This document shows, in pieces, positions 21,508-64,000 of a stretch of 64,000 nt of DNA; position 1 is the first letter of the stretch; each line of letters starts with the position of its first letter. Origin of the DNA: an uncultured Gemmatimonadaceae bacterium (lineage in GTDB: Bacteria > Gemmatimonadota > Gemmatimonadetes > Gemmatimonadales > GWC2-71-9); contig CAZPER010000012.1 in NCBI GenBank assembly GCA_964585655.1, positions 1,019-65,018 on the forward strand. Direction: 5' to 3'. The translations under genes and the position numbers were made by a program. Under the pieces are notes generated by a model. That model did not search any database and had not been told where the DNA came from. It saw nothing but the letters and a program-made list of their open reading frames with translations.

Positions 21508-21660
21508 CTAGATTGCCTCTGAGAGACTTGGGCCCCCTCGGCAGCACTGGGGGACCAGGCCTCCGCGGGCGCGCCGCCGGGCGCGCCTCGAGTTGCTCCC
21601 CCCGCCGGCGCCTCGCAGTAGGGTTCCCCGTCCTCGCCCGAGGGCAGTTGGTGGAGCGAC

Positions 21661-24642: not shown

Positions 24643-24654
24643 TCGAGGCGCGTC

Positions 24655-25638
24655 ATGCCTGACGCCGACGAGCGGCCCCGGATCGGCCCGACGCCGCGGA
24701 GCACCGCGGAGGCGCTGCGGCGGCGGGCGGCGGAGATCGCGGCGGCCCGGGACGCGGAGATTCCACCGGCCCCGGAGCCGCTCTCGGCCGAGGAGGCGCG
24801 GGAGATCATCCACGAGCTGCAGGTGTACCAGATCGAACTCGAGCTGCAGAACGACGAGCTGCGCCGCGCCCAGGAGTCGCTGGAGGCCGCCCGGGCCCGC
24901 TACTTCGACCTCTACGACCTGGCGCCGGTGGGCTACTTCACCCTGCGCCCGGACGGCGTGATCCTGGAGGTGAACGTGACGGGAGCCCGCCTGCTCGACG
25001 TGGCGCGCGCGGCGCTCATCGAGCGGCCGCTGAGCGTGTTCATCCTCCCCGAGGACCAGGACCGTTACTACCTGGCCTGCCGCAAGCTGGTGACGACCGG
25101 CGGCGACCACGCCTTCGAGCTGCGGATGGCGAGGCGGGACGGCCGGCCGTTCTGGGTCTCCATCGAGGCGACGGTGGCCCACGACGACGAGGGCGCGCCG
25201 GTGCTGCGCATGATGATGACCGACATCACCCCCCGGAAGGTGGCGGAGCAGGCGCAGCGGGCGGCGGATGCCCTGCGGGAGAGCTGGGTGTACTACCGGC
25301 AGATCGCCGAATCGCTGCCGCAGCTGGTCTGGGCCAGCGGTCCCGACGGCTCGTGGGACTACCTGGGCCCGCAATGGCTCACCTACACCGGGTTCCCGGC
25401 GGCGGAGCAGCTGGGGCTGGGGTGGCTGCGGCAGGTGCACCCCGACGACCGTCCCGCCGCGAGCGTCGGGTGGGACCGGGCGGTGGCGACCGGGGCGGTG
25501 TTCAACGCCGAGATTCGCCTCCGGCGGCACGACGGGATCTTTCACCGGTTCAAGTGGCGCGCGGTGCCGCTGCGGGCCGAATCCGGCGTCATCACCCGGT
25601 GGTTCGGGGTGAACACCGACCTCGAGGACGCCGGCTAG
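24655..25638 (+). CDS. PAS domain protein (two PAS domains, no output domain)
   Basis: HELQVYQIELELQNDELRRAQ coiled-coil leader and two PAS-like blocks. No HisKA/HATPase or other effector region. Confidence 0.8.
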   Translation: MPDADERPRIGPTPRSTAEALRRRAAEIAAARDAEIPPAPEPLSAEEAREIIHELQVYQIELELQNDELRRAQESLEAARARYFDLYDLAPVGYFTLRPDGVILEVNVTGARLLDVARAALIERPLSVFILPEDQDRYYLACRKLVTTGGDHAFELRMARRDGRPFWVSIEATVAHDDEGAPVLRMMMTDITPRKVAEQAQRAADALRESWVYYRQIAESLPQLVWASGPDGSWDYLGPQWLTYTGFPAAEQLGLGWLRQVHPDDRPAASVGWDRAVATGAVFNAEIRLRRHDGIFHRFKWRAVPLRAESGVITRWFGVNTDLEDAG

Positions 25639-47285: not shown

Positions 47286-47516
47286 ACAGGGGTGAGATAT
47301 AGCGACGGGAGGACCCTAGGGCCGGGAGGCTGAAGCGGAGATGAACCCGGGGTGAGAGATCGCTTCGGGAGCCGGCCGGCGGGGGACCCGGCCTCCACTG
47401 GCACGGGGCGGGAAGCCGGGGAAGGGGCGGGTGCCAGGTGTGACCTGGGTCACCTCTTAACGCCCGCTGGCGCGTTACGTCTCTCCCCGTGAAGACTGGC
47501 CGCGACTCGACAACCC

Positions 47517-48443
47517 ATGAAGGAGTGCCCCATGAAGTCTTTCCGTTCCCCCCTGGCCGCCGCCCTGTTCGCGGCGCTGGCGCTCGGACTCGGCGCCTGT
47601 TCCGATAGCAGCGATCCTTCCGGCGGTTCCGCCAACACCCTGTCGCAGGTGCAGGCCAACGACATGAGTTCCGACATCGCCCAGGACCTGGATGAACTCG
47701 CGGAGCTTTCGACGTTCGATGCCTCGAATGGCGTCCCCCTGTCGGCCCAGGCCGCGATCCATGGCGCGCCGCCGGCTCCGTGCGTGACCATTACCCCGAC
47801 GCCCGTAGTGAACAGCGATGGCGACGCGGTGCCGGACTCGGCCCGCTTCACCTTTGACGCCTGCGTCTTCACCCGTGGCAATGGCGCCATGACCGACTCG
47901 CTCGGCGGCACCATCGATTTCATCGACCCGCTGCCGCTGGCCGCGAGCATCGGTGTCCGGCACATCTTCACCAACTTCACCCGGGCCCGGATCAACACCG
48001 TCATGCCGGCGCGGAGCTTCATGGCGGTGCACAACGGCACCCGCGAGTGGGGCGGCAACGCCGACACGCTGGGCCACACGATCACGGGCTTCGAAACCGC
48101 CTGGACCCATCCGAGCGGCCGCACCACCACCAATGAGAAGAACTGGGTCGCCAAGTTCACGGCGACGACGCCGGGGACCATCTCGCTGCTCACCCCGCTC
48201 CCGGCCGGCAGCATCACGGTGAACGGCACCGGTAACTGGACCACGGCAAACCGGACCTGGGCGGTCGCGGTCACCACCGTGACCCCGCTGGCCTACGATC
48301 CGGCCTGCAATGCCGCACCGCGGTTCACCGCCGGCGAGATTACCCTGGTAGTGTCGCGGAACGGCGAGGTGACCAACGTGGACATCGTATTCACGGCGTG
48401 CGGGCAATACACCGTGACGCGGACGCCGGGCGTGGCGGTCTGA
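47517..48443 (+). CDS. hypothetical lipoprotein
   Basis: Lipobox LGLGAC. An alternative ATG at 47532 is possible. No domain recognised. Confidence 0.5.
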   Translation: MKECPMKSFRSPLAAALFAALALGLGACSDSSDPSGGSANTLSQVQANDMSSDIAQDLDELAELSTFDASNGVPLSAQAAIHGAPPAPCVTITPTPVVNSDGDAVPDSARFTFDACVFTRGNGAMTDSLGGTIDFIDPLPLAASIGVRHIFTNFTRARINTVMPARSFMAVHNGTREWGGNADTLGHTITGFETAWTHPSGRTTTNEKNWVAKFTATTPGTISLLTPLPAGSITVNGTGNWTTANRTWAVAVTTVTPLAYDPACNAAPRFTAGEITLVVSRNGEVTNVDIVFTACGQYTVTRTPGVAV

Positions 48444-48505
48444 CGGTAGGGCGGTAGGGGAGGTAAGGCGGTAGGGCGGTAGGGAGAACTCCCCCTACCG
48501 CCCTG
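48444..48505. repeat. GGCGGTAG-family array with short inverted arm
   Basis: CGGTAGGGCGGTAGGGGAGGTAAGGCGGTAGGGCGGTAGGG ... CCCCCTACCGCCCTG. It lies between convergent genes. Confidence 0.85.
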
Positions 48506-48510
48506 TCGTT

Positions 48511-48942
48511 TCAGGGGGTGGTCATCTCCCAGAGCACATTCACGATCCTCCACTCGCCGTTCCACCGCCCCAGGTGCATGTAGTCCACCCAGTCGGACAT
48601 CGTCAGCTTCACGCTGGCGGCTCCATTGGTGATGCTCAGGATCTCCACCGTCTTGAGCTGGCGGGCCGGAGGGGTCTCCTTGCCGTAGCCCTTGCCAGCG
48701 GCACCGACGAGCTGTGCCGCCGTCATGGAACCGAGCCGGCTCTTGCCGGTGCTGTCGGTGCGGACGATGCGCTTGGCCAGGTCGGGGTGCACCGCCCGAG
48801 CCATCCGGGTGGAGTCGCCGGTGTACCACCCCTCGGCGTAGTCGAGCGCGGCGGCGCGGATGGCGGTGGAGTCGGCACGGGTCTGGGCCGCAAGCGGTGA
48901 GGCCGCGAGGGCTAGCAGGGCGACGGTGACCGGGAGTCGCAT
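48511..48942 (-). CDS. NTF2-like (SnoaL / lumazine-binding-like) family protein, secreted
   Basis: Signal peptide plus the AALDYAEGWYTGD...WRIVNVLWE pattern typical of NTF2-fold proteins. Confidence 0.6.
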   Translation of the reverse strand: MRLPVTVALLALAASPLAAQTRADSTAIRAAALDYAEGWYTGDSTRMARAVHPDLAKRIVRTDSTGKSRLGSMTAAQLVGAAGKGYGKETPPARQLKTVEILSITNGAASVKLTMSDWVDYMHLGRWNGEWRIVNVLWEMTTP

Positions 48943-49032
48943 GAGGGGCTCGCTGGGAGAGGGATTCGTGCCGGACGGGCGCCCCGGCGGGCCAGTTTCA
49001 GGCGTGGCCCCGCGGGGCGCACCACAGGTTTG

Positions 49033-49064
49033 TACCGCCTTACCGCCTTACCGTCCTACCGCCG
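49033..49064 (-). repeat. GGCGGTAG-family array (4 units, C-rich on the plus strand) overlapping a gene 3' end
   Basis: TACCGCCT TACCGCCT TACCGTCC TACCGCCG. The NDH-2-CNB gene ends inside it. Confidence 0.8.
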
Positions 49065-50664
49065 TGCCGTCCTCGCCCGGCTTCCGCGTGATCGCCTCAC
49101 CGAAGGGCCGGATGGTCTCGCTCAGGGTGCGGGCCTCCTGGCCTCCCACCGCGACCACCTCCACCCGGGTGAGCGCCCGCACCGTGGCGGTGCGGCGGGT
49201 GTTCTGGAACACCGCCATCTCGCCGAAGTGCTGCCCGGCGCCGAGCCGGGCGAGCACCTCGGGGCCGGCGGGTCCCTCGCGGGTGACTTCGACCTCCCCC
49301 TGCCAGATGAGATAGAGCTTCTGCCCCAACTCCCCTTCCCGGACGATCGGCTGGCCCGCCTCGTAGTGTTCCCGGCGCAACCCGAAGGGCTCCCGCACCC
49401 GCACCTCGACGATATCCCGCCCGAGGATCGGAGTGAGGATCCAGTCAAAGAGAATGCGGATCTGCCGTTCGAAGGTGGGGACGAAGTACATGAAGATGGA
49501 GCGCCAGACGATCCACGCCGGGATCCCCGTCAGCTCGATGCCCCACAGCTGGGCGATGGCGCGCCGTCGGCCCAGCCCGCAGGCATCGCCCAGGCCGGTG
49601 AACCGGAACCGCTTCGGCTCCTGGCCCCGGATGCTGCGCAGGATGTTGCGGCCCACCTGGCGACCGGTCATCATCGCGAAGATCGCGAGGGTGGGGCAGG
49701 TGCCACCCTTGGGGTGCGGCACCGCCGCGCAGTCGCCGGCGGCCCAGGTGTTCTCCGCCCCGGGCACGCGGGTGAACTCGTCGGTGACGAGCCGCCCCCG
49801 GTCGTCCCGCTCGTACGGCAGCTGGTTGAGGAGGGGTGAGAGCGCGATGCCGGCCGAGCTGATGATCGTGCGGGTGGCGATCCGCTCGCCGTTGGAGAGC
49901 ACCGCCTCCTCCGGCGTGGCGGCGCTGAGCCGCACCCCCGTCCGCAGGTCCAGCCCGCGGGAGCGGAGGTAGCGCTCGGCGTAGTCCACCAGCTTCGGGT
50001 GTTCCTTCACCAGCTCCGGGAGGATCCGGTCCCCGCTGTGGGCCACGATGACCCGCGACTCGGCCGGGTTGATGCGGGGATACTCCTTCCGCGCCAGGAT
50101 CCGGACGTAGTCCTCCAGCTCCGCCGCTACCTCGATCCCGCCGTAGTTCCCGCCCACGATCACGAAGGTCAGCAGCCGCTGCCGCTCCGCGGGATCGGTC
50201 TCGATCTCCGCCAGCTCCAGCATGGAGAGAATGTGGTTCCGGACCTTGAAGCAGTCCCAGTAGGTCTTGAGCTTGAGCGCGTGCTCCGCCAGGCCGGGAT
50301 AGCGCGACAGGTCGTCAATCGAGCCGAGGGTCACGACCAGGTGGTCGTAGGGGAGCTCGTAGCGCTTGCCGTCCAGGTGGCGGGCGGTGACGATGACCTT
50401 GCGCTCCAGGTCGATCTGCTCGATCTCGGCGTTGTGGAACCGGGCGGGGGGAAACATCCGGCGGGCGGGGCTGGTGATCTGCCCCGGCTGGATCCGGCCG
50501 GTGAGCATCTCCGCGATGAAGCCGTGGAAGGTGTGGAAGTTGTCGCGCCCGATGACGCTGACGTCCACCTCGCCGCGGCGGATGGCGCCGCGGAGGGCGC
50601 GCACGCAGTAGAAGCTGGACCAGCCGCCGCCGAGACAGACCACCCTGGGCACGGTTCGCGTCAT
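49048..50664 (-). CDS. type II NADH dehydrogenase-like FAD/NAD(P) oxidoreductase with C-terminal cyclic-nucleotide-binding domain
   Basis: Two dinucleotide folds (VVCLGGGWSS, FVIVGGNYGGIE). The C-terminal CNB beta-roll has a phosphate-binding cassette (FGEMAVFQNTRRTATVRA). Confidence 0.85.
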   Translation of the reverse strand: MTRTVPRVVCLGGGWSSFYCVRALRGAIRRGEVDVSVIGRDNFHTFHGFIAEMLTGRIQPGQITSPARRMFPPARFHNAEIEQIDLERKVIVTARHLDGKRYELPYDHLVVTLGSIDDLSRYPGLAEHALKLKTYWDCFKVRNHILSMLELAEIETDPAERQRLLTFVIVGGNYGGIEVAAELEDYVRILARKEYPRINPAESRVIVAHSGDRILPELVKEHPKLVDYAERYLRSRGLDLRTGVRLSAATPEEAVLSNGERIATRTIISSAGIALSPLLNQLPYERDDRGRLVTDEFTRVPGAENTWAAGDCAAVPHPKGGTCPTLAIFAMMTGRQVGRNILRSIRGQEPKRFRFTGLGDACGLGRRRAIAQLWGIELTGIPAWIVWRSIFMYFVPTFERQIRILFDWILTPILGRDIVEVRVREPFGLRREHYEAGQPIVREGELGQKLYLIWQGEVEVTREGPAGPEVLARLGAGQHFGEMAVFQNTRRTATVRALTRVEVVAVGGQEARTLSETIRPFGEAITRKPGEDGTAVGR

Positions 50665-50665
50665 G

Positions 50666-52513
50666 TCACACCTTGATCATGGTGCTGCGGCGCCCGGGAC
50701 GGCGGGGGGCGTTCCGCGCCGCCCACCAGGGGCCCAGGGACTCCAGCGCCGCGCGGTACCCGAGGGCGACGATTTCGTCCACCCGCTCGAACTCGAAGAT
50801 GCCGATGCTCTCCACCGGCGGATGCACGTAGAGGTCCGCCGTTTCCTTTACCCGCCGGGTCTCCTGGGTGCTGCCGAGCACCGCCACCCGGGAGAGGGTC
50901 TCGAACAGGGTGGGGTAGGTGGGGGCGCGGCCGCGGCGGAAGAACCGGTCCCGCATCACCTGCCAGGTGCTGGGGGTGTCCGGATAGCCGGAGCGGGCCT
51001 CCTCCGACGGGGACACGTCGGAGGCGAGGATCGCGCCCTGCGCGCCCCGCGTGAGGAGCGCCGCCGGCAGGTTGTTGACCACGCCGCCATCCACCAGCAG
51101 CGCGCCGTCGGCGGCGACGATCGGCGGCGCCACCCCGGGGATCGCCATGCTCGCGAGGCACCCCTCCGCCACCGGGCCGCTCCGGTGCACCCGCATGGCG
51201 GAGTGGGTGAGGCTGGCGCTGACAGCGAAGGCCTCGAGCCAGCAGTCGGCGAAGTCGAGATCGCCGAACATGTGGCGCAGCATGCCGGCGGCGGCGCGGT
51301 GGGTCACCAGGGAGATGAAGGGCAGGGTGTACGCCTTGTGCGGCTTGTAGCCGTTCCAGCCGTGGCGATTGAGTTCCACCATGTCCGGCAGCGGCATCCC
51401 GGCGGCGTACTGGGCGGCGACGACCGAGCCGGCGCTGGTGCCGCCGATCTCGTCCACCGGGATCCCCAGTTCCTCCATGGCGCGCAGGAAGCCCAGGTGC
51501 GCCATGCCGCGCGCCCCACCGCCGCTCAACGCCACCCCGATGCCCCGCCCGGTCACCCGCCGCGCCAGCCGCGCGAAGTCGGCGAGATCCCCGAGCCGCA
51601 CATGATGGCGCCGCTGGTAGGTCCGTCCAGCGAGCCAGCGGGTAGTGCCGGCGGGGCGCGTCACTCCCGTGCCGTGAACGAGGACGAGGTCCACCGCGGT
51701 CCAGCGTTCGCCCACCGGGGCCGCCTCGGCGGGATCGGGGGCGGTATCGCCGTGCACCACATCGAGGATCAGGTCCGCCTGGCGCAGGCAGCGCTCCGTC
51801 CAGGCGTTGGCGTCGGCGTCGGCGAGATAGATCACCTCGGCGTGGTCCGCCTCCAGCCGGTCGAGCCACTGGATCGTGGCGGCGTGGCGCGGATCGCCGT
51901 GGGGCGCGAGCGCGGCGCCCGCGCCAAGGGCGGCGTCCACCGTCACGCTGGAGACCAGGATGGCGTCGCCATAGCCGGTCAGGGCGGCGAGGAGCGCCTC
52001 GGCGACCGCGCGGGCGGGTGCGTCCCACCCGCGCGGGCGCACCGCGATCGTGCCCACCCCCGCGCCGCCCTCGGGAATGGCGGCCGGCGCGGCGAGCTGC
52101 CCAGCCAGCATCCGGGTGATCTCGAGCGCGAGCGGCGGATGCGCGGCGAGCAGCGCCTCGAACCGGTCCCGCGGCATCCGGCCGAGCTCGGAATCGCGGA
52201 CGGCGCGGATGGCGGCGGAGCGGGGCGCGCCGGTGAGCAGGGAGAGCTCGCCCACGAGTTCTCCACGGCCCACCTCGCGGATCATCTCGGTGCGGGCGCC
52301 GCGGGTCCGCTCGATGCGGAGCCGCCCGCCAAGCACCAGGTAGGCGGCGTCCCCCGCGTCTCCCTGGGCGAAGAGCCGCTCCCCGCCGGAGATGCGGATG
52401 ATGTCGAGCGCCGCCACCAGGGCGTCGAGGGTGGCGTCGTCCAGGCCCCCGAAGAGGGCCGTGGCCGCGAGCCGGCCCCGGACCTGGAGGGTGTCGGAGC
52501 GCCGTTCAGGCAT
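50666..52513 (-). CDS. cyclic-nucleotide-binding domain / patatin-like phospholipase fusion (NTE-like)
   Basis: N-terminal CNB (GELSLLTGAPRSAAIRA). Patatin oxyanion GGGARG, nucleophile GTSAG and catalytic Asp in VDGG. Confidence 0.85.
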   Translation of the reverse strand: MPERRSDTLQVRGRLAATALFGGLDDATLDALVAALDIIRISGGERLFAQGDAGDAAYLVLGGRLRIERTRGARTEMIREVGRGELVGELSLLTGAPRSAAIRAVRDSELGRMPRDRFEALLAAHPPLALEITRMLAGQLAAPAAIPEGGAGVGTIAVRPRGWDAPARAVAEALLAALTGYGDAILVSSVTVDAALGAGAALAPHGDPRHAATIQWLDRLEADHAEVIYLADADANAWTERCLRQADLILDVVHGDTAPDPAEAAPVGERWTAVDLVLVHGTGVTRPAGTTRWLAGRTYQRRHHVRLGDLADFARLARRVTGRGIGVALSGGGARGMAHLGFLRAMEELGIPVDEIGGTSAGSVVAAQYAAGMPLPDMVELNRHGWNGYKPHKAYTLPFISLVTHRAAAGMLRHMFGDLDFADCWLEAFAVSASLTHSAMRVHRSGPVAEGCLASMAIPGVAPPIVAADGALLVDGGVVNNLPAALLTRGAQGAILASDVSPSEEARSGYPDTPSTWQVMRDRFFRRGRAPTYPTLFETLSRVAVLGSTQETRRVKETADLYVHPPVESIGIFEFERVDEIVALGYRAALESLGPWWAARNAPRRPGRRSTMIKV

Positions 52514-54287
52514 TGAGGGGCGGCATCACGTGGGCGACCCGCTTGATGTTCAGCAGGTGCCGGAAGCTCACATTGTCGGTGGTGGAGTTGCCGCCGAAGG
52601 TGCCGCAGCCGAGGGTGAAGGAGGGCTCCAGCCGGCTGGTCAGCCCGACCACCCCCTGCACCGACGGGCTGTTCACCAGGATGCGGCCCGCCGGCACCAG
52701 CCTCCCGAAGCGCTCGATCAGCGCCGGGTTCCGGGTGTGGATTCCCGCCGTATGGCCGGCGCCGTGGGCCTCGAGCAGCCGCCGCGCGAGGGTGATCCCC
52801 GCCTCGGCATTTTCCACGGTGAAGAGCGAGAGCACCGGAAAGATCTTCTCCCCCGCCAGCGGATTCTGGGGCGCGGCGTCCTCGGTCGGGGCGACGATGA
52901 GCCGGATCGGGTAGCCGCGGCTGATCTTCATGAAGCCGGCGATGGCCTCCGCCGACTGGCCCACGATCTGCCCCCGCCACCCCTTCGTCTCCGGATCCAC
53001 CGCGGTCTTGAGCAGGCGCCTGGTTTCCTCCTCGGTGAGCACCGCGGCGCCGGCCCGCTCGAAGGCGGCAATCAGCGCCTCGCGCAGCGGCCGCTCGACG
53101 ATGAGGTTGTGCTCCGCCCCGCAGATGAGGCCGTTGTCGAACGACTTGCTGAGCACCACCGCCTGCGCCACCTGGTCGGGGTCGGCGTCGGCGCAGATGA
53201 GCGTCGGGGTGTTGGCCGGCCCCACCCCGATGGCCGGGGTGCCGGAGGAGTAGGCCGCCTTGACCATCGCCGATCCGCCGGTGGCGAGGACCAGCGAGAC
53301 CCCCGGATGGGAGAGGAACATCGCGGTCTTCTTCCGGCTGGTGCGCTTGGGGATCCACTGCACCAGGTCGGGCGGGGCGCCGGCCGCGGTCAGCACTGTA
53401 CGGATCAGGGCGCCGACTTCATTCCCCACCTGCAGGGCGGCGCGGTGGAAGGAAAGGATGAGGGCGTTCCCGCCCTTGAGGGCGATCAGGGTCTTGAACA
53501 CCGCCGTCGCCACCGGGTTGGTCATGGGGATCAGCGCGAAGATCACGCCCGCCGGGCTCCCGATCTCGGTGACCTGGCGGTCGCTGAAGGTCTGCAGGAC
53601 GCCGCGGCCGGGGCGGCCGGCGAGCGACCGGTAGACCCCGAGGCTCGCCATCTGGTTCTTGGTGGTCTTGTCGGGGACGTTGCCGAGCTTGGTCTCCGCG
53701 ACGGTGGCGCGGGCGAGCGGTTCCGCCGCCGCCGCGACGGCCTGGGCGATCTGCCCCAGCAGGGCGTCGATCCGGTCGTCGGGCCAGTCGGCGAAGGCGG
53801 CGAGCGCCGCCTGGGCGCGGGCCACGGTCTCGTTGACGTCCGGATCGGGCTCCGAGGCGGCGAACTCCGTCAGGCGGTGGGTGGTGGCGCGGAGCTTGAG
53901 GGCGGCGTCGCGGCCCAGGGCGCGGATGACCTGCACCCCGATCCGCGGGTGGTCCGACACCAGCCGGTCGATGGCCGCGGCGGAGAGCCGCCGGGCGGTG
54001 ACGTCGGAGCTGCTGAAGGCGCTGGCGGAGCGGGGCTGGCGGTCGAGCAGGGAGAGTTCGCCGAGGATCGTGCCCGGCTCGAGGAAGCCGAGCACGCCGT
54101 CGGTGTCCACCTCGGGGCGGGCCACTTCCAGCCGCACCTCCCCGGCGTCGATGATGTAGCAGCCGTCCCCGGCGCTGCCCTCCTCGAAGATCTGCGCTCC
54201 CGCGGGGAACTGGACCGGCTCGAGGTAGCCCTCGAGGGTGCGGAGTTCGTCGGGGGACAGCGTGTCGAGGGGTTCTGGCAGCGGCAT
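52506..54287 (-). CDS. cyclic-nucleotide-binding domain / CoA-acylating aldehyde dehydrogenase fusion (AdhE/EutE-type ALDH)
   Basis: N-terminal CNB (GELSLLDRQPRSASAFS). The ALDH core has the catalytic Cys context SFDNGLICGAEHN. Confidence 0.85.
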   Translation of the reverse strand: MPLPEPLDTLSPDELRTLEGYLEPVQFPAGAQIFEEGSAGDGCYIIDAGEVRLEVARPEVDTDGVLGFLEPGTILGELSLLDRQPRSASAFSSSDVTARRLSAAAIDRLVSDHPRIGVQVIRALGRDAALKLRATTHRLTEFAASEPDPDVNETVARAQAALAAFADWPDDRIDALLGQIAQAVAAAAEPLARATVAETKLGNVPDKTTKNQMASLGVYRSLAGRPGRGVLQTFSDRQVTEIGSPAGVIFALIPMTNPVATAVFKTLIALKGGNALILSFHRAALQVGNEVGALIRTVLTAAGAPPDLVQWIPKRTSRKKTAMFLSHPGVSLVLATGGSAMVKAAYSSGTPAIGVGPANTPTLICADADPDQVAQAVVLSKSFDNGLICGAEHNLIVERPLREALIAAFERAGAAVLTEEETRRLLKTAVDPETKGWRGQIVGQSAEAIAGFMKISRGYPIRLIVAPTEDAAPQNPLAGEKIFPVLSLFTVENAEAGITLARRLLEAHGAGHTAGIHTRNPALIERFGRLVPAGRILVNSPSVQGVVGLTSRLEPSFTLGCGTFGGNSTTDNVSFRHLLNIKRVAHVMPPLNA

Positions 54288-54304
54288 GTCGGCCTTGGGA
54301 TGTT

Positions 54305-54416
54305 GGGGGATGCGGGAAGATCATGGGGGACGGGGGAAACGGGAAGCGGGAGCGGGGAGACAGGAGAGAGGGGACGGGCGTCATTGCGCCGGCCCGTCCC
54401 CTCTCTCCCGTCTCCC
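54305..54416. repeat. GGGGAAC-family G-run followed by a long near-perfect hairpin, in a divergent spacer
   Basis: Stem 54355-54379 pairs with 54392-54416: 25 positions with 1 mismatch. The loop is 12 nt. Confidence 0.85.
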
Positions 54417-54438
54417 TCCCCCAGCCGGGCCTCCCGGC

Positions 54439-54451
54439 TATATTCCCGCCC
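54439..54451 (+). promoter_or_regulatory. candidate -10 plus discriminator TATATTCCCGCCC upstream of the FKBP isomerase gene
   Basis: Identical 13-mer to 21411-21423, located 47 nt upstream of the ATG. Confidence 0.4.
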
Positions 54452-54491
54452 GTCCAAGCAGTCCCTCGAGACCCCTGATTTGGGAGTACCC

Positions 54492-55184
54492 ATGAAGATC
54501 CTGGCCCTCGCCGCAGCCGGGGCGCTCGCGCTCGGCGCCTGCCAGTCGGCGGCCCCGGGTGGCGGCAAGCTGTCCACCCAGGACGACAGCGTCAGCTACA
54601 TCCTCGGCTTCAAGATGGGCGAGAACCTCAAGCAGCAGTCGGTTCCGGTGAAGCCGGAGCTCATCTTCCGGGGTCTCAAGGAAGGGATGGCGGGGACGGC
54701 GGCGATGATCCCCGATTCGACCATGCAGGCGACGATGATGGCCTTCCAGGTGCGCATGATGGGCATCCAGCGCCAGAAGGACTCAGCGGACGCCATCACC
54801 CAGAAGGCGGACGGCGAGAAGTTCCTCGCCGACAACAAGGGGAAGGACGGCGTGAAGACCACGGCGAGCGGGCTCCAGTACAAGGTGATCACCGAAGGCA
54901 CCGGTCCCCGTCCCAAGGCGACCAGCCAGGTGACCGTGCACTACCGCGGCACGCTGCTCGACGGCAAGCAGTTCGACTCCTCCTACGACCGCGGCCAGCC
55001 CGCGACCTTTGCGCTCAACCAGGTGATCCCCGGGTGGACCGAGGGGGTGCAGCTGATGAACGTCGGCTCCAAGTACCAGTTCTGGATCCCCGGCGACCTG
55101 GCCTACGGCCCGCAGGGCTCCCCGCCGACGATTCCGCCGAACGCGACGCTGTCGTTCGAGGTGGAGCTGATCTCGTTCAAGTGA
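54492..55184 (+). CDS. FKBP-type peptidyl-prolyl cis-trans isomerase (FkpA-like lipoprotein)
   Basis: GGGAG lies 5 nt upstream of the ATG. Lipobox LGAC. FKBP_N and FKBP_C segments (VHYRGTLLDGKQFDSSYDRG...FALNQVIPGW). Confidence 0.9.
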   Translation: MKILALAAAGALALGACQSAAPGGGKLSTQDDSVSYILGFKMGENLKQQSVPVKPELIFRGLKEGMAGTAAMIPDSTMQATMMAFQVRMMGIQRQKDSADAITQKADGEKFLADNKGKDGVKTTASGLQYKVITEGTGPRPKATSQVTVHYRGTLLDGKQFDSSYDRGQPATFALNQVIPGWTEGVQLMNVGSKYQFWIPGDLAYGPQGSPPTIPPNATLSFEVELISFK

Positions 55185-55205
55185 CCGGACCGAGGCCCGC
55201 CGGCC

Positions 55206-56768
55206 ATGGCTGAGGCCATTCCGTCGCATTTCAACGACGCGCTCGCGGGGCGGTACGCCCTGGAGCGCGTCGTTGGCCGTGGGGGGATGGCCGTGGTGTT
55301 CCGGGCCCGCGACCTGCGCCACGACCGTCCGGTGGCCATCAAGGTGCTGCACGAGGAGCTGTCGGCCACGCTCGGCGCCGAGCGGTTCCAGCGGGAGATC
55401 CAGATCGCGGCGCGGCTGGTGCACCCCCACATCCTGCCACTGCTCGATTCGGGCACGGTGCCGGCGCCCTCCCCCGAGGGCCCGGCCCGGCTGTTCTACG
55501 TGATGCCGTTCGTCGATGGGGAATCCCTCCGTCAGCGGACCATCCGGGAGCGAACCCTCCCCACCGACCAGGTGGTGGCGCTGGTGGGGGAGATCGCCAG
55601 CGCCCTCGACTATGCCCACCGGCAGGGCGTCATCCACCGGGACATCAAGCCCGAGAACATCCTGCTCTCCGCCGGCCACGCCCTGGTGGCGGATTTCGGC
55701 GTGGCGAAGGCGGTGAGCAGCGCCACGGACCAGGCGATCACCCGCACCGGCTTCCCGGTCGGCACCGTCGGCTACATGAGCCCGGAGCAGGCGGCCGGCC
55801 TGGCCGACCTCAACGAGCGGAGCGACGTCTACAGCCTCGCCGCGTTGACCTTCGAGATGCTGGTGGGCGAGCTGCCGGGGATGTGGCCGGGGGAGGAAGC
55901 GGCGCGGCTCAAGCAGTTCGTGGATGCGACGCCCCGGGTCCGCGCGGCGCTCGACCTCCTTCCCGGCGCGGTCGAGGCGGTGCTGGTGCGGGGCCTCCTG
56001 CTCCGCGACCAGATGCGCTGCCCCACGCCCGGCGCCTTCGCGCGGGAGCTGGCCCAGGCGCTCGGCCCCTCGCCCCGTTTCAACACGACGGACGCGGACC
56101 AGATCCTGGCCCGCGCCGCGGAGCTGGACGCCGGGCTCCCCGCCGACGACCGCGGACTCTCGTTAGGCGGGCTGACCCGCATCGCCGGCGAAGTGGGCAT
56201 CCCCCCGGAGCATGTGGAGCGCGCGGCCCGCGAGGTGGCGCAGCGCGCGGCGCCGCTCCCGATGCATCCGTTCATCGGGGCCCCGACCCGGATCGTGGTG
56301 GAGCGGGTGGCCCGGCGCGAGTTCGGTGAGGGAGAGGCCGGCGACCTGGTGGACCAGATCCGCCAGACCATCGGCAACATGGGCCAGGTGTCGCGGCTGG
56401 GGCGGGAGCTGTCGTGGCAGACGGTGTCGTACGGCGGCACCCCGGGGCGACAGCTCTTCATCTCCTTCCGCCCCGCAGCCGGCCAGACGGTGATCCGCAT
56501 GGAGGAGAACCTCCGGCAGCAGGCCGGCGCGTACTATGGCGGGTTCATGGGTGGGCTCGGCGGCGGAACCACGGGGATCTGGATGGGGGTCGGGCTCGGC
56601 GTCTTCCATTCGGCGCTGGCCGCGGCGGCGATGGGCATCTCCGCCATCGGTGGCGCCTATCTGCTCGCCCGGAAGCTGTTCACCGGGCTCCGGGCCAAGC
56701 GGGCCACCGAACTCGATGGCCTGGCGGACCGGCTGGTGGACCGGATCGAGTCGGGTGGGCGGCAGTAG
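55206..56768 (+). CDS. serine/threonine protein kinase with C-terminal membrane-associated domain
   Basis: Hanks kinase motifs GRGGMAVV, AIK, HRDIKPEN and DFG. Gly-rich TM segments near the C-terminus. Confidence 0.9.
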   Translation: MAEAIPSHFNDALAGRYALERVVGRGGMAVVFRARDLRHDRPVAIKVLHEELSATLGAERFQREIQIAARLVHPHILPLLDSGTVPAPSPEGPARLFYVMPFVDGESLRQRTIRERTLPTDQVVALVGEIASALDYAHRQGVIHRDIKPENILLSAGHALVADFGVAKAVSSATDQAITRTGFPVGTVGYMSPEQAAGLADLNERSDVYSLAALTFEMLVGELPGMWPGEEAARLKQFVDATPRVRAALDLLPGAVEAVLVRGLLLRDQMRCPTPGAFARELAQALGPSPRFNTTDADQILARAAELDAGLPADDRGLSLGGLTRIAGEVGIPPEHVERAAREVAQRAAPLPMHPFIGAPTRIVVERVARREFGEGEAGDLVDQIRQTIGNMGQVSRLGRELSWQTVSYGGTPGRQLFISFRPAAGQTVIRMEENLRQQAGAYYGGFMGGLGGGTTGIWMGVGLGVFHSALAAAAMGISAIGGAYLLARKLFTGLRAKRATELDGLADRLVDRIESGGRQ

Positions 56769-61125: not shown

Positions 61126-61147
61126 GGTGAGATTGTACGGCGTGGAC

Positions 61148-61252
61148 GGGGAGGGCGGTAGGGCGATTCGGCGATTGGGCGATTGAGCGATTAGCTCATA
61201 CCATCTTGCCCGTCGGCCCGTCCGCCCGTCGGCCCGCCTACCGCCCCTCCCC
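61148..61252. repeat. composite element: GGCGGTAG-type outer inverted repeat enclosing GCGATTNG x4 and CCCGTCGG-type x4 8-nt arrays
   Basis: 61148-61165 pairs with 61235-61252 with a 1-nt bulge. Internal arrays at 61163-61194 and 61209-61240. Confidence 0.75.
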
Positions 61253-61295
61253 GCCCACCCGTAACTTCACCCGTCCCTTACCCCGGTACCCGCCC

Positions 61296-64000
<2,705 letters not shown>

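What the first reader, a model, noticed from the sequence alone, without database searches (positions are those of the whole stretch)
49048..54287. Translationally coupled operon of three different enzymes, each fused to a cyclic-nucleotide-binding domain
**Seen in sequence.** Three consecutive minus-strand genes are packed with an 8-nt overlap (ATGCCTGA, 52506-52513) and a 1-nt gap (50664/50666).
- Gene 1 (593 aa): N-terminal CAP/Crp-type CNB domain plus a CoA-acylating AdhE/EutE-type aldehyde dehydrogenase (catalytic context SFDNGLICGAEHN).
- Gene 2 (615 aa): N-terminal CNB plus a patatin lipase (GGGARG, GTSAG, VDGG).
- Gene 3 (538 aa): an NDH-2-like flavoenzyme plus a C-terminal CNB.

All three CNB domains keep the phosphate-binding cassette Gly-Glu ... 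Arg-Ser/Thr-Ala: GELSLLDRQPRSAS, GELSLLTGAPRSAA and GEMAVFQNTRRTAT. They therefore look ligand-competent. I see no nucleotide cyclase, phosphodiesterase or Crp-type regulator anywhere in the window.

**Established.** CNB-patatin fusions (NTE-like) exist on their own. Cyclic-nucleotide-activated patatins and CNB-fused effectors are effector types in CBASS and Pycsar defence.

**Inference.** One diffusible cNMP could switch on three catalytic activities at once: phospholipid deacylation, aldehyde/acyl-CoA conversion, and NADH-to-quinone electron transfer. That would be either a second-messenger-gated lipid remodelling or catabolic module, or a suicide-type membrane/redox effector set whose cyclase is encoded elsewhere. 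I know of no described system with this triad.
Basis: partly seen in the sequence, partly recalled or inferred. Interest (0 to 1): 0.7.

Follow-up and report, generated by a model that had tools for sequence, protein, structure and literature searches.

The report
Conserved operon of cyclic-nucleotide-sensing enzymes
Three tightly packed genes for an aldehyde dehydrogenase, a phospholipase and an NADH dehydrogenase, each carrying its own intact cyclic-nucleotide sensor domain, form an operon kept in the same order in distantly related bacteria; it most likely lets one second messenger switch redox and lipid metabolism directly, not fight phages.

Summary
Three minus-strand genes, g1 (52506-54287), g2 (50666-52513) and g3 (49048-50664), are joined by an 8-nt overlap and a 1-nt gap. 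They encode CNB+CoA-acylating ALDH, CNB+NTE_Ploop+patatin and NDH-2+CNB. All domains pass Pfam's curated cut-offs.

The adjacency is not chance.
- The same triad in the same order, with overlapping or nearly abutting ends, occurs in seven other loci. These include cultured Nocardioides (Actinomycetota).
- A Thermomicrobiales MAG has all three in another order.
- The ALDH+NDH-2 pair alone occurs in Xanthobacteraceae and Ignavibacteria.

The phosphate-binding Gly, Glu and Arg are invariant in about 120 homologs each of g1 and g3.

I found no cyclase, phosphodiesterase or Crp in the window. In Nocardioidaceae, however, a class III cyclase homolog with an FHA domain abuts the triad.

Best reading: a self-contained metabolic cassette gated by a cyclic nucleotide. 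Its conserved core would link NADH-producing aldehyde oxidation to NADH oxidation by the NDH-2-like enzyme.

The suicide/defence reading is poorly supported:
- PADLOC hits are at domain level only.
- The chromosomal context is stable, with no mobile or defence neighbours.
- The fusion is absent from plasmids.

I found no paper describing the operon. Ligand and activities are untested. Verdict: a new variant of a known kind.

The parts
52506..54287 (-). g1: CNB + CoA-acylating (EutE/AdhE-N-type) aldehyde dehydrogenase, 593 aa
   Evidence: ORF. Pfam PF00027 + PF00171. NCBIfam AdhE-N 1.3e-128 and EutE-type TIGR02518 6.7e-110, both below the equivalog cut-offs. PDB acetylating ACDH 5j78 5e-87. AF2 pLDDT 87.
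53952..54215 (-). g1 CNB domain (aa 25-112); PBC GELSLLDRQPRSAS at aa 76-89
   Evidence: Pfam. G76, E77 and R86 invariant in 119 homologs. The model shows a beta-rich domain, a PBC helix at 77-82 and a long C-helix at 114-143.
52530..53846 (-). g1 ALDH catalytic region (aa 148-586); catalytic Cys389
   Evidence: NCBIfam alignment range. C389 invariant 119/119.
52506..52513 (-). g1 stop / g2 start overlap, ATGCCTGA (8 nt)
   Evidence: Sequence read directly. Comparable junctions in six other triad loci: g1/g2 overlaps of 1 to 20 nt.
50666..52513 (-). g2: CNB + NTE P-loop-like + patatin (bacterial NTE/PNPLA6-like esterase), 615 aa
   Evidence: Pfam PF00027, PF24179, PF01734. NCBIfam RssA 6.8e-17, below cut-off. 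PDB PlpD 5fqu.
52139..52393 (-). g2 CNB domain (aa 41-125); PBC GELSLLTGAPRSAA at aa 88-101
   Evidence: Pfam. The GE...R[STKA]A pattern is kept in 8 of 9 g2 homologs; the Arg is His in L001.
51056..51532 (-). g2 patatin domain (aa 328-486); GGGARG oxyanion loop, GTSAG nucleophile, DGG Asp
   Evidence: Pfam. Motifs conserved in 9 homologs.
50664..50666 (-). g2 stop / g3 start junction, TGA-C-ATG (1-nt gap)
   Evidence: Sequence read directly.
49048..50664 (-). g3: NDH-2-like flavoenzyme + C-terminal CNB, 538 aa
   Evidence: Pfam PF07992, PF22366, PF00027. PDB mycobacterial NDH-2 9mqy 7e-42. AF2 pLDDT 87, pTM 0.82. Foldseek vs 9mqy: target-normalised TM 0.84.
49414..50646 (-). g3 NDH-2 body (aa 7-417): FAD motif GGGWSS, NADH motif GGNYGGIE (E178), GD (310-311), atypical AIFAMM in place of AQxAxQ, NDH2_C amphipathic helices
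   Evidence: Alignment to 9mqy and 4nwz. Family conservation. Motif frequencies in NDH-2s from PMC5299459.
49123..49371 (-). g3 CNB domain (aa 432-514); PBC GEMAVFQNTRRTAT at aa 481-494
   Evidence: Pfam 5.3e-22. G481, E482 and R491 invariant 121/121, T492 113/121, A493 119/121. Model pLDDT about 85-93.
54288..54491 (.). Divergent intergenic region (g1 vs FKBP gene) that should hold the operon promoter; contains a long hairpin at 54346-54425
   Evidence: Sequence. Inverted repeat with 34-nt arms. RNA fold z = -4.7. No sigma-70-like site found. Role unknown; not conserved upstream of g1 in distant loci.

Best explanation
This is a conserved, self-contained operon of three enzymes. Each enzyme is regulated allosterically and post-translationally by its own canonical cyclic-nucleotide-binding domain, so one diffusible cNMP can switch the three activities together. 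The cNMP is most likely cAMP made by a class III cyclase encoded elsewhere.

**Shown**
- The gene set, its tight junctions and its conservation across phyla.
- Intact catalytic residues.
- Invariant phosphate-binding-cassette residues.

**Inferred: how the core works**
- The conserved core is the acylating ALDH plus the NDH-2-like flavoenzyme, linked through NAD(H).
- Step 1: aldehyde + CoA + NAD+ gives acyl-CoA + NADH.
- Step 2: the NDH-2-like enzyme re-oxidises that NADH and passes the electrons to a membrane acceptor (quinone).
- Together the two enzymes would form a cofactor-balanced route from short-chain aldehydes to acyl-CoA and the respiratory chain.

**Inferred: the third member and the gating**
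- The NTE-type patatin esterase is a frequent third member. It ties the switch to (lyso)phospholipid deacylation and lipid turnover.
- Ligand binding would move the B/C-helix region of each CNB and relieve, or impose, autoinhibition of the attached catalytic domain. Mycobacterial cAMP-regulated acetyltransferase Pat (Rv0998) works this way (background knowledge).

The module is metabolic and chromosomal, not an abortive-infection system.
For: **Conservation of the gene set**
- Same order ALDH>patatin>NDH-2 in L081, L089, L168, L172 and three Nocardioidaceae genomes: L165, L169, L170.
- A permuted triad occurs in Thermomicrobiales L001.
- The ALDH+NDH-2 pair alone occurs in Xanthobacteraceae L082-84, Ignavibacteria L002 and L086.
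- 14 contig lengths are shared between the top-120 hit lists of g1 and g3. One was checked and is a full triad.

**Co-inheritance and coupling**
- The identity matrices of the three genes agree with one another.
- Junctions are overlapping or within 3 nt in all seven loci measured.

**Sensor and catalytic residues**
- PBC Gly/Glu/Arg are invariant in 119 g1 and 121 g3 homologs. Catalytic Cys389 and the NDH-2 Glu178 and Gly-Asp are also invariant.
- In g1 the CNB is as conserved as the catalytic domain: 59% vs 62%.
- The three CNBs are only 23-25% identical to each other, but each is 38-52% identical to its Nocardioides ortholog. These are three old, separately maintained fusions.

**Structure**
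- AF2 models are confident and show the expected CNB secondary-structure pattern.
- The g3 fold matches solved NDH-2s.

**Cyclase link and acyl-CoA neighbours**
- A Guanylate_cyc+FHA gene overlaps the 3' end of the NDH-2 gene convergently in Nocardioides antri and N. humilatus. Its homolog in the MAG L170 carries only the FHA hit on record.
- The nearest solved relatives of that cyclase are mycobacterial adenylyl cyclases Ma1120 and Rv1900c.
- Acetyl-CoA synthetase or CoA-transferase genes follow it.

**Ordinary chromosomal setting**
- The window context is ordinary chromosome and GC is uniform.
Against: - No ligand binding or enzyme activity has been measured for any member of these families.
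- I found no paper on them.
- The direction of the ALDH reaction is unknown. The NAD(H) coupling is inference from cofactor logic and co-occurrence only.
- The NDH-2 family lacks the AQxAxQ motif: it has A-I-[YF]-A-M-x. In 76 of 121 members the second GxGxxG is GGN[FY]GG. The electron acceptor may therefore not be a standard quinone.
- Many CNB-ALDH genes stand alone or sit with other partners (L091, L095, L096, L103, L173). NDH2-CNB also occurs without the ALDH (L166, L167, L171).
- A cyclase is adjacent only in one family. That cyclase has non-canonical substrate and catalytic residues: Asp/Ser at the Lys/Asp positions and Asp for the catalytic Asn.
- Some CNB-type domains elsewhere bind other ligands or none.
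Confidence: 0.55

Rival explanations
1. The CNB domains are not cAMP/cGMP receptors here. They bind another small molecule (a nucleoside, or a different cyclic or linear nucleotide), or they act as constitutive dimerisation or scaffolding modules. The three enzymes would then be linked by operon expression and perhaps by assembly, not by a shared second messenger.
For: - CNB folds with other ligands are documented. Trypanosome PKA binds nucleosides (abstract of PMC10959531, listed). Kannan et al. list families with non-canonical cassettes.
- g1 has a 30-residue C-helix like the CRP dimerisation helix.
- The only adjacent cyclase homolog is non-canonical at its substrate and catalytic positions.
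- One g2 ortholog has His in place of the PBC Arg.
Against: - The cyclic-phosphate-contacting Gly-Glu...Arg-Ser/Thr-Ala set aligns to CRP G71/E72/R82/S83/A84. It is invariant or nearly so in about 250 sequences of three separately evolving CNB lineages. That is hard to explain without a cyclic-phosphate ligand.
Confidence: 0.2
2. Same cNMP-gated module, but it works as a reductive redox valve. On signal, the ALDH runs as an acyl-CoA reductase (acyl-CoA + NADH gives aldehyde). The NDH-2-like enzyme also drains NADH. Both would be NADH sinks that reset NADH/NAD+ under hypoxia or overflow, and the aldehyde or alcohol produced would feed lipid or wax-type metabolism.
For: - EutE/AdhE-type enzymes are reversible (established enzymology).
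- An 886-aa homolog fuses an SDR reductase to CNB-ALDH, an AdhE-like two-step layout (P0093).
- Lipid-related neighbours recur: patatin, alpha/beta hydrolases, PAP2 and DAGK_cat.
Against: - No alcohol dehydrogenase lies in or beside the triad in the window or in most loci. A free toxic aldehyde would accumulate.
- Acetyl-CoA synthetase or CoA-transferase neighbours in Nocardioides fit acyl-CoA formation equally well.
- Nothing here fixes the direction.
Confidence: 0.15
3. The triad is an abortive-infection effector set of a Pycsar/CBASS-like anti-phage system. A phage-triggered cyclase made elsewhere (adjacent in Nocardioides) would activate membrane-degrading and redox-collapsing effectors.
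For: - Pycsar effectors carry CNB domains and CBASS uses patatin effectors (established knowledge).
- PADLOC gives weak hits to PycTIR/effector and phospholipase models.
- A PF00211-family cyclase abuts the triad in Nocardioides.
Against: - PADLOC hits cover only the generic CNB or patatin domain, at E 1e-7 to 1e-11.
- The CBASS lipase model scores 29.8 bits against a cut-off of 200.
- The Nocardioides cyclase scores 14 bits on PycC. It resembles mycobacterial adenylyl cyclases and carries an FHA domain.
- g1 and g3 are 53-64% identical between the window and the Actinomycetota and Alphaproteobacteria loci, and three Nocardioidaceae genomes share the same conserved core neighbourhood: CNNM, pgsA-like, DUF881, gcvH.
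- No CD-NTase, mobile-element or defence genes lie nearby in the window.
- No plasmid carries the fusion.
- ALDH and NDH-2 are not known effector types.
Confidence: 0.06
4. Chance adjacency of three unrelated CNB-containing genes with no functional link.
For: Soil bacteria encode many CNB proteins. Flanking genes differ between lineages.
Against: - The same three architectures are adjacent in at least eight independent loci and in a permuted form in another phylum.
- Their divergence patterns agree with one another and their junctions are overlapping or within 3 nt.
- No other CNB gene was found among about 43 window ORFs.
Confidence: 0.02

Closest known systems
Mycobacterial cAMP-regulated protein acetyltransferase Pat (Rv0998/MSMEG_5458; NCBIfam NF058543)
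   Same: A bacterial enzyme with a fused CNB domain that gates catalysis directly, with no transcription factor involved. All three window CNBs hit this model through the CNB region at E 3.5e-8 to 2.7e-10. It acts on acyl-CoA/acetate metabolism. This is the best mechanistic analogue.
   Different: - The catalytic domain is different (GNAT).
- It is a single gene, not an operon of several CNB enzymes.
- Scores are far below the family cut-off (33-40 bits vs 460), so this is not membership.
NTE/PNPLA6-type CNB-patatin esterases, including bacterial homologs such as M. tuberculosis Rv2565 (recalled from background knowledge) and RssA-type patatins
   Same: g2 has the CNB + NTE_Ploop + patatin architecture with the GXGXXG, GXSXG and DG[GA] motifs.
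   Different: - g2 has one CNB rather than the several found in eukaryotic NTE.
- Here it is embedded in an operon with two other CNB enzymes.
- It scores below the RssA equivalog cut-off (61.6 vs 272 bits).
Type II NADH:quinone oxidoreductase (NDH-2), e.g. mycobacterial Ndh (PDB 9mqy), C. thermarum (4nwz), S. aureus (5na1)
   Same: - Fold: target-normalised TM 0.84-0.89.
- Two dinucleotide-binding domains, Glu178 (equivalent to S. aureus E172), the Gly-Asp pair, and the C-terminal amphipathic NDH2_C helices.
   Different: - A C-terminal CNB domain is added.
- The AQxAxQ quinone-site motif is replaced family-wide by A-I-[YF]-A-M-x.
- The NADH motif is GGN[FY]GG in most members.
- The published NDH-2 family analysis excluded proteins with extra fused domains (PMC5299459).
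EutE/AdhE-N/PduP-type CoA-acylating aldehyde dehydrogenases (PDB 5j78, 3k9d, AdhE 6tqh)
   Same: About 38-40% identity over the whole catalytic domain; invariant catalytic Cys in the GLICGAEHN context.
   Different: - An N-terminal CNB plus a long helix is added.
- No microcompartment genes and no fused or adjacent alcohol dehydrogenase.
- Below the equivalog cut-offs.
- Substrate unknown.
Pycsar (PycC cyclase + CNB-TIR/TM effector) and CBASS (CD-NTase + CapV patatin)
   Same: The general logic: a cyclase-made nucleotide activates an effector that carries a nucleotide sensor. Patatin and CNB domains both occur in those systems.
   Different: - No PycC or CD-NTase is present.
- The 'effectors' here are metabolic enzymes.
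- Matches are at domain level only.
- Strong vertical conservation in core chromosome.
'Bact_Pyrredox' CNB family of Kannan et al. 2007 (PMC2246266)
   Same: A pyridine-nucleotide-disulphide-oxidoreductase domain N-terminal to CNB, with a GEM...RR..AT-type cassette.
   Different: - That family is described as having tandem CNB domains; g3 has a single CNB after an NDH2_C domain.
- The paper reports only the architecture, with no function or gene neighbourhood.
- Whether the two are the same family was not tested.

Membership tests
Cyclic-nucleotide-binding domain (PF00027, CAP/PKA-R type) | HMM match above the curated cut-off | tested here: met
   59.7, 72.3 and 78.0 bits against a cut-off of 27.5 for g1, g2 and g3.
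Cyclic-nucleotide-binding domain (PF00027, CAP/PKA-R type) | Phosphate-binding cassette Gly-Glu ... Arg-Ser/Thr-Ala | tested here: met
   Aligned to CRP G71/E72/R82/S83/A84 in all 20 domains compared, with Pro for Ser in L082 g1. Invariant G/E/R in 119 g1 and 121 g3 homologs. 8 of 9 g2 homologs keep the Arg.
Cyclic-nucleotide-binding domain (PF00027, CAP/PKA-R type) | Beta-sandwich with a short PBC helix and a C-terminal helix | tested here: met
   AF2 secondary structure and pLDDT for g3 residues 429-526 and g1 residues 23-143. g2 was not modelled.
Cyclic-nucleotide-binding domain (PF00027, CAP/PKA-R type) | Actual binding of cAMP/cGMP and allosteric effect | not testable with these tools
   Needs ITC/DRaCALA and enzyme assays.
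CoA-acylating aldehyde dehydrogenase (EutE/AdhE-N type) | Family HMM / equivalog score | tested here: inconclusive
   Strong similarity (NF010378 430 bits, TIGR02518 368 bits, SauS 308 bits), but all below the equivalog cut-offs of 951, 620 and 600. PF00171 is above its cut-off. This places g1 in the superfamily and subfamily; it is not a named equivalog.
CoA-acylating aldehyde dehydrogenase (EutE/AdhE-N type) | Catalytic cysteine in a conserved context | tested here: met
   C389 invariant in 119 homologs.
NTE/patatin-like phospholipase | Patatin HMM plus oxyanion GXGXXG, GXSXG nucleophile and DG[GA] Asp | tested here: met
   PF01734 94.6 bits and PF24179 76.1 bits. Motifs conserved in 9 homologs.
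Type II NADH:quinone oxidoreductase (NDH-2) | Two dinucleotide-binding domains plus C-terminal membrane-anchoring helices; NDH-2 fold | tested here: met
   PF07992 99.4 bits. PF22366 28.9 bits against a cut-off of 27.7, which is marginal. Foldseek top hits are all NDH-2s, target-normalised TM 0.84-0.89.
Type II NADH:quinone oxidoreductase (NDH-2) | Second GxGxxG(xE) NADH motif and conserved Glu (S. aureus E172) | tested here: inconclusive
   E178 is invariant. The middle Gly is Asn in the window protein and in 76 of 121 family members, and Gly in 45 of 121.
Type II NADH:quinone oxidoreductase (NDH-2) | Quinone-site motif AQxAxQ (or AQxAxR / APxAxQ) | tested here: not met
   The window has AIFAMM and the family consensus is A-I-[YF]-A-M-x. 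Those three motifs cover 87% of the 1762 curated NDH-2s, and about 30% of the wider family lacks them (PMC5299459). I therefore file g3 as NDH-2-like, with the acceptor unverified.
Pycsar anti-phage system | PycC pyrimidine cyclase adjacent to a CNB-TIR or CNB-TM effector | tested here: not met
   No cyclase in the window. The Nocardioides neighbour scores 14 bits on PycC. No TIR or TM effector domain; PADLOC hits cover only the CNB.
CBASS anti-phage system | CD-NTase plus a cGAMP-activated CapV-type patatin | tested here: not met
   No CD-NTase among the scanned ORFs. The NF041079 CBASS lipase model scores 29.8 bits against a cut-off of 200.

The most novel reading that the evidence does not exclude
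A self-contained, possibly horizontally spread 'second-messenger metabolic switch cassette'. In it a cyclic nucleotide directly gates electron entry into the respiratory chain through a CNB-fused NDH-2-like enzyme, together with aldehyde/acyl-CoA conversion and phospholipid deacylation.

It would belong to a wider, undescribed guild of CNB-fused enzymes that cluster in shifting combinations: ALDH, NDH-2, NTE-patatin, Methyltransf_20 and GMC-oxidoreductase neighbours. Together these would form a post-translational cAMP regulon in soil bacteria, independent of CRP.
Probability: 0.35. Interest if true: 0.7.

Novelty: new variant of a known kind. Interest (0 to 1): 0.55.

Why it matters
Direct control of bacterial enzymes by cAMP, without a transcription factor, is documented for only a handful of proteins (background knowledge). 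Outside enterics and mycobacteria, what the many class III cyclases of soil bacteria regulate is largely unknown.

This is a conserved cross-phylum operon in which three enzymes of redox, acyl-CoA and lipid metabolism each carry an intact sensor. It gives a concrete, testable output for that signalling.

- It would be the first case I am aware of where a respiratory NADH dehydrogenase is gated by a second messenger.
- It offers a cultured model, Nocardioides antri or N. humilatus, in which the operon sits beside a candidate cyclase.
- It is also a caution for defence-system mining. A CNB domain plus a patatin next to a PF00211 cyclase is not by itself Pycsar or CBASS.

Tried and rejected
- **Genome-collection scan with the full-length g1 alignment.** The patterns fell in the generic ALDH core. 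78 of 80 loci were ordinary EutE/AdhE genes; only L001 and L002 were useful. I redid the scan on metagenomes with an alignment of the CNB+linker only, which worked.
- **Defence reading.** PADLOC on the three proteins and on the Nocardioides cyclases gave weak, domain-level hits only. Rejected as the main explanation.
- **Plasmid carriage.** tblastn of g1 against PLSDB found no record covering at least 80% of the query.
- **Promoter and terminator scan of 48400-54700.** No sigma-70-like site and no minus-strand terminator. Uninformative for this phylum.
- **Upstream hairpin as a known RNA.** Only sub-threshold miRNA-precursor matches, as any long hairpin gives. It is not repeated in the window and not conserved upstream of g1 in distant loci. 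I did not count it as part of the mechanism.
- **Literature.** Seven full-text searches and three papers read found no description of CNB-ALDH, NDH2-CNB function or the triad. The only related item is the 2007 'Bact_Pyrredox' architecture listing.
- **Not run.** I ran no further search on g2 or the representative-library search, because the conclusions do not depend on them.

Full report
**1. Observation**

| Gene | Coordinates | Length |
|---|---|---|
| g1 | 52506-54287 | 593 aa |
| g2 | 50666-52513 | 615 aa |
| g3 | 49048-50664 | 538 aa |

- Their third-position GC is 0.93-0.95, like other genes of this roughly 71% GC window.
- The g1/g2 junction is an 8-nt ATGCCTGA overlap.
- The g2/g3 junction is TGA-C-ATG.
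- Pfam places every claimed domain above its curated cut-off:
  - g1: cNMP_binding + Aldedh.
  - g2: cNMP_binding + NTE_Ploop + Patatin.
  - g3: Pyr_redox_2 + NDH2_C + cNMP_binding.
- NCBIfam refines g1 to the CoA-acylating AdhE-N/EutE type. The matches are strong but below the equivalog cut-offs.
- The closest solved relatives:
  - g1: acetylating acetaldehyde dehydrogenase 5j78 and AdhE.
  - g2: PlpD.
  - g3: mycobacterial NDH-2 9mqy.
  - The CNB parts match PKA-R, PKG and CRP-family structures.
- AlphaFold models of g3 (pLDDT 87, pTM 0.82) and g1 (pLDDT 87, pTM 0.73) are confident.
  - Both CNB regions show the expected strands, the short PBC helix and a C-terminal helix.
  - Foldseek puts g3 with solved NDH-2s, target-normalised TM 0.84-0.89.

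**2. Surroundings**

I scanned about 43 ORFs across the 64 kb with Pfam.

- The window is ordinary chromosome. It holds MutS, a DNA polymerase III delta-like gene, an ECF sigma factor, a histidine kinase, a beta-CASP nuclease, UPRTase, a CheB-CheR-PAS fusion, two TetR/ArsR-controlled RND efflux systems and two Ser/Thr kinases.
- An FKBP isomerase gene (ATG at 54492, + strand) is divergent from g1.
- A Lumazine_bd_2 ORF lies 105 nt downstream of g3.
- I found no nucleotidyl cyclase, phosphodiesterase, Crp-type regulator or further CNB domain.
- The best named homolog of g3 (79% identity) is from a Gemmatimonadales MAG. The window is probably Gemmatimonadota; that is an inference.

**3. The adjacency is conserved, not accidental**

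*Both fusion families are large.*
- All 120 best g1 hits carry PF00027+PF00171 at 54-96% identity.
- All 120 best g3 hits carry PF07992+PF00027.
- Named sources span Gemmatimonadota, Actinomycetota, Chloroflexota (Thermomicrobiales), Alphaproteobacteria (Xanthobacteraceae) and Acidobacteriota (Vicinamibacterales).

*Loci with the same triad in the same order:*
- L081, a 1.14-Mb MAG contig.
- L089.
- L168.
- L172.
- Three Nocardioidaceae genomes: cultured N. antri and N. humilatus, plus a MAG.

*Variants:*
- A Thermomicrobiales MAG has NDH2-CNB > CNB-ALDH > CNB-patatin.
- The ALDH+NDH-2 pair without a patatin occurs in Xanthobacteraceae, Ignavibacteria and L086.

*Further support:*
- 14 contig lengths are shared between the g1 and g3 top-120 lists. 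The one I checked is a full triad.
- Pairwise identity matrices of the three genes agree with one another. g1 and g3 are slow-evolving (53-78%) and g2 is faster (37-59%).
- In all seven measured loci the junctions overlap by 1 to 20 nt or are separated by at most 3 nt.

*The linkage is not universal.*
- Several CNB-ALDH genes stand alone or sit with other partners.
- NDH2-CNB also occurs without the ALDH.
- In those loci other CNB proteins recur:
  - CNB-Methyltransf_20 lies beside CNB-ALDH in L092 and beside NDH2-CNB in L167.
  - A standalone CNB protein lies beside a GMC oxidoreductase in L166.

**4. Are the sensors intact?**

The one exception is Pro for Ser in L082 g1.
- Across 119 g1 homologs, G76, E77 and R86 are invariant.
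- Across 121 g3 homologs, G481, E482 and R491 are invariant, T492 is 113/121 and A493 is 119/121.
- g2 keeps the pattern in 8 of 9 homologs; the Thermomicrobiales copy has His for Arg.
- In g1 the CNB is as conserved as the catalytic domain, 59% vs 62%.
- The three window CNBs are only 23-25% identical to one another, but 38-52% identical to their Nocardioides orthologs. These are three old, separately maintained fusions, not recent duplications.
- Together this is strong evidence of selection for binding a cyclic phosphate. It does not tell which nucleotide.

**5. Catalytic sites**

- g1: catalytic Cys389 is invariant.
- g2: the GGGARG, G-[TSC]-S-x-G and DG[GA] motifs are conserved.
- g3:
  - It keeps the FAD motif, the invariant Glu178 (equivalent to S. 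aureus E172) and Gly310-Asp311.
  - The family has replaced the AQxAxQ quinone-site motif by A-I-[YF]-A-M-x.
  - Most members have GGN[FY]GG as the second dinucleotide motif.
  - In the published analysis, AQxAxQ and its two variants cover 87% of 1762 curated NDH-2s. Proteins with extra fused domains were excluded from that analysis (PMC5299459).
  - I therefore call g3 NDH-2-like with an unverified acceptor.

**6. The missing cyclase**

- None lies in the window or within 8-10 kb of the triad in L081, L168 or L172.
- In N. antri and N. humilatus, a roughly 300-aa Guanylate_cyc+FHA gene converges on the NDH-2 gene and overlaps its 3' end by 17 nt. The MAG L170 has a homologous gene there with only the FHA hit on record.
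- Its nearest solved relatives are the mycobacterial adenylyl cyclases Ma1120 and Rv1900c. It scores only 14 bits against the Pycsar cyclase model.
- Aligned to Ma1120, whose K/D/A to E/G/Y variant is in the PDB, it has Asp/Ser/Ala at the substrate-specifying positions. It also has Asp in place of the catalytic Asn. Its product, or even its activity, is uncertain.
- Acetyl-CoA synthetase (N. antri) or CoA-transferase subunits (N. humilatus) follow it. That is a hint towards acyl-CoA metabolism.

**7. Interpretation**

The data best fit a self-contained metabolic cassette. Its enzymes are each gated post-translationally by a fused cNMP sensor, in the manner of mycobacterial Pat.

- The conserved core pair makes cofactor sense. 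An acylating ALDH produces NADH, and an NDH-2-like enzyme re-oxidises it and passes the electrons to the membrane.
- The NTE-type esterase links this to lipid turnover.
- This coupling and its direction are inferences.
- A reductive 'NADH valve' version is not excluded. An SDR-CNB-ALDH fusion (P0093) hints at aldehyde/alcohol chemistry.
- A non-cNMP ligand remains possible.

The defence reading is unlikely:
- Only domain-level PADLOC and NCBIfam matches.
- No CD-NTase or PycC.
- g1 and g3 are 53-64% identical between the window and the Actinomycetota and Alphaproteobacteria loci.
- A stable core neighbourhood in Nocardioidaceae.
- Uniform composition.
- No carriage on plasmids.

**8. Novelty**

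- The individual architectures are in databases under generic names such as 'cyclic nucleotide-binding domain-containing protein'.
- A Pyr_redox+CNB family was listed in 2007.
- I found no functional study of CNB-ALDH or NDH2-CNB and no description of the operon. The searchable library omits most subscription journals.
- I rate it a new variant of a known kind: enzymes regulated directly by a fused CNB domain.
- It is of moderate interest. It offers a tractable model for what cAMP does in soil bacteria, and a possible first case of second-messenger control of a respiratory NADH dehydrogenase.

Noticed in passing
window 54346-54425: A long inverted repeat (34-nt arms, 85% complementary, 12-nt loop) lies in the 204-nt divergent region between the FKBP gene and g1.
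- RNA fold z-score is -4.7.
- It is unique in the window and gets only sub-threshold miRNA-hairpin Rfam hits.
- A near-identical strain (L085) has the same region with indels and extra GGGAGAC units.
- It is absent upstream of g1 in L081, L165 and L172.
- Role unknown.
   Followed up: partly
L165 9646-10551 (-), L169 9625-10521 (-), L170 9646-10512 (-): A class III cyclase homolog with a C-terminal FHA domain converges on the NDH2-CNB gene in Nocardioidaceae. Aligned to Ma1120 it has Asp/Ser/Ala at the Lys/Asp/Ala substrate positions and Asp for the catalytic Asn. That points to altered specificity or a pseudo-cyclase. The FHA domain implies control by Ser/Thr phosphorylation.
   Followed up: partly
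L092 12802-14313; L167 5109-6617: A fourth CNB fusion, CNB + Methyltransf_20 (about 500 aa), lies near CNB-ALDH in one locus and near NDH2-CNB in a Gemmatimonadaceae locus. This suggests a wider guild of co-clustering CNB enzymes.
   Followed up: partly
P0182, P0185, P0227; P0093: Longer fusions exist. One type is NDH2-CNB with an added ketopantoate-reductase/ApbA-like region (about 910 aa). Another is an 886-aa protein combining a short-chain dehydrogenase with CNB-ALDH.
   Followed up: no
L171 6931-12785; L173 8001-11860: Lipid-flavoured neighbours recur. In L171, NDH2-CNB overlaps an upstream alpha/beta hydrolase gene and converges on P450 and animal-haem-peroxidase genes. In L173, a lone CNB-ALDH sits beside PAP2 and a DAGK_cat lipid kinase.
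   Followed up: no
window 49048-50664 (g3) and its family: The whole NDH2-CNB family lacks the AQxAxQ quinone-site motif (it has A-I-[YF]-A-M-x). 76 of 121 members have Asn for the middle Gly of the NADH GxGxxG. The acceptor or kinetics may differ from textbook NDH-2.
   Followed up: partly
window 21622-25638: A 1006-aa CheB methylesterase + CheR methyltransferase + PAS fusion is followed immediately by a 331-aa multi-PAS protein.
   Followed up: no
window 54492-56768 and 61131-64000: The FKBP gene divergent from the triad is followed directly by a Ser/Thr kinase gene, and a second kinase with TPR repeats runs off the window end. This is of possible interest because the Nocardioides cyclase carries a phospho-Thr-binding FHA domain. 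No link was tested.
   Followed up: no
window 47450-48443: Two long overlapping ORFs on opposite strands (47517-48443 + and 47450-48277 -) have similar GC3. The + strand one has a lipoprotein-like N-terminus and no Pfam match. Which strand is coding was not resolved.
   Followed up: no
L001 8650-10590: The Thermomicrobiales CNB-patatin has His instead of the phosphate-binding Arg (GEMSLLTGEPHSAT). It is the only PBC Arg loss seen among the triad-associated proteins.
   Followed up: no
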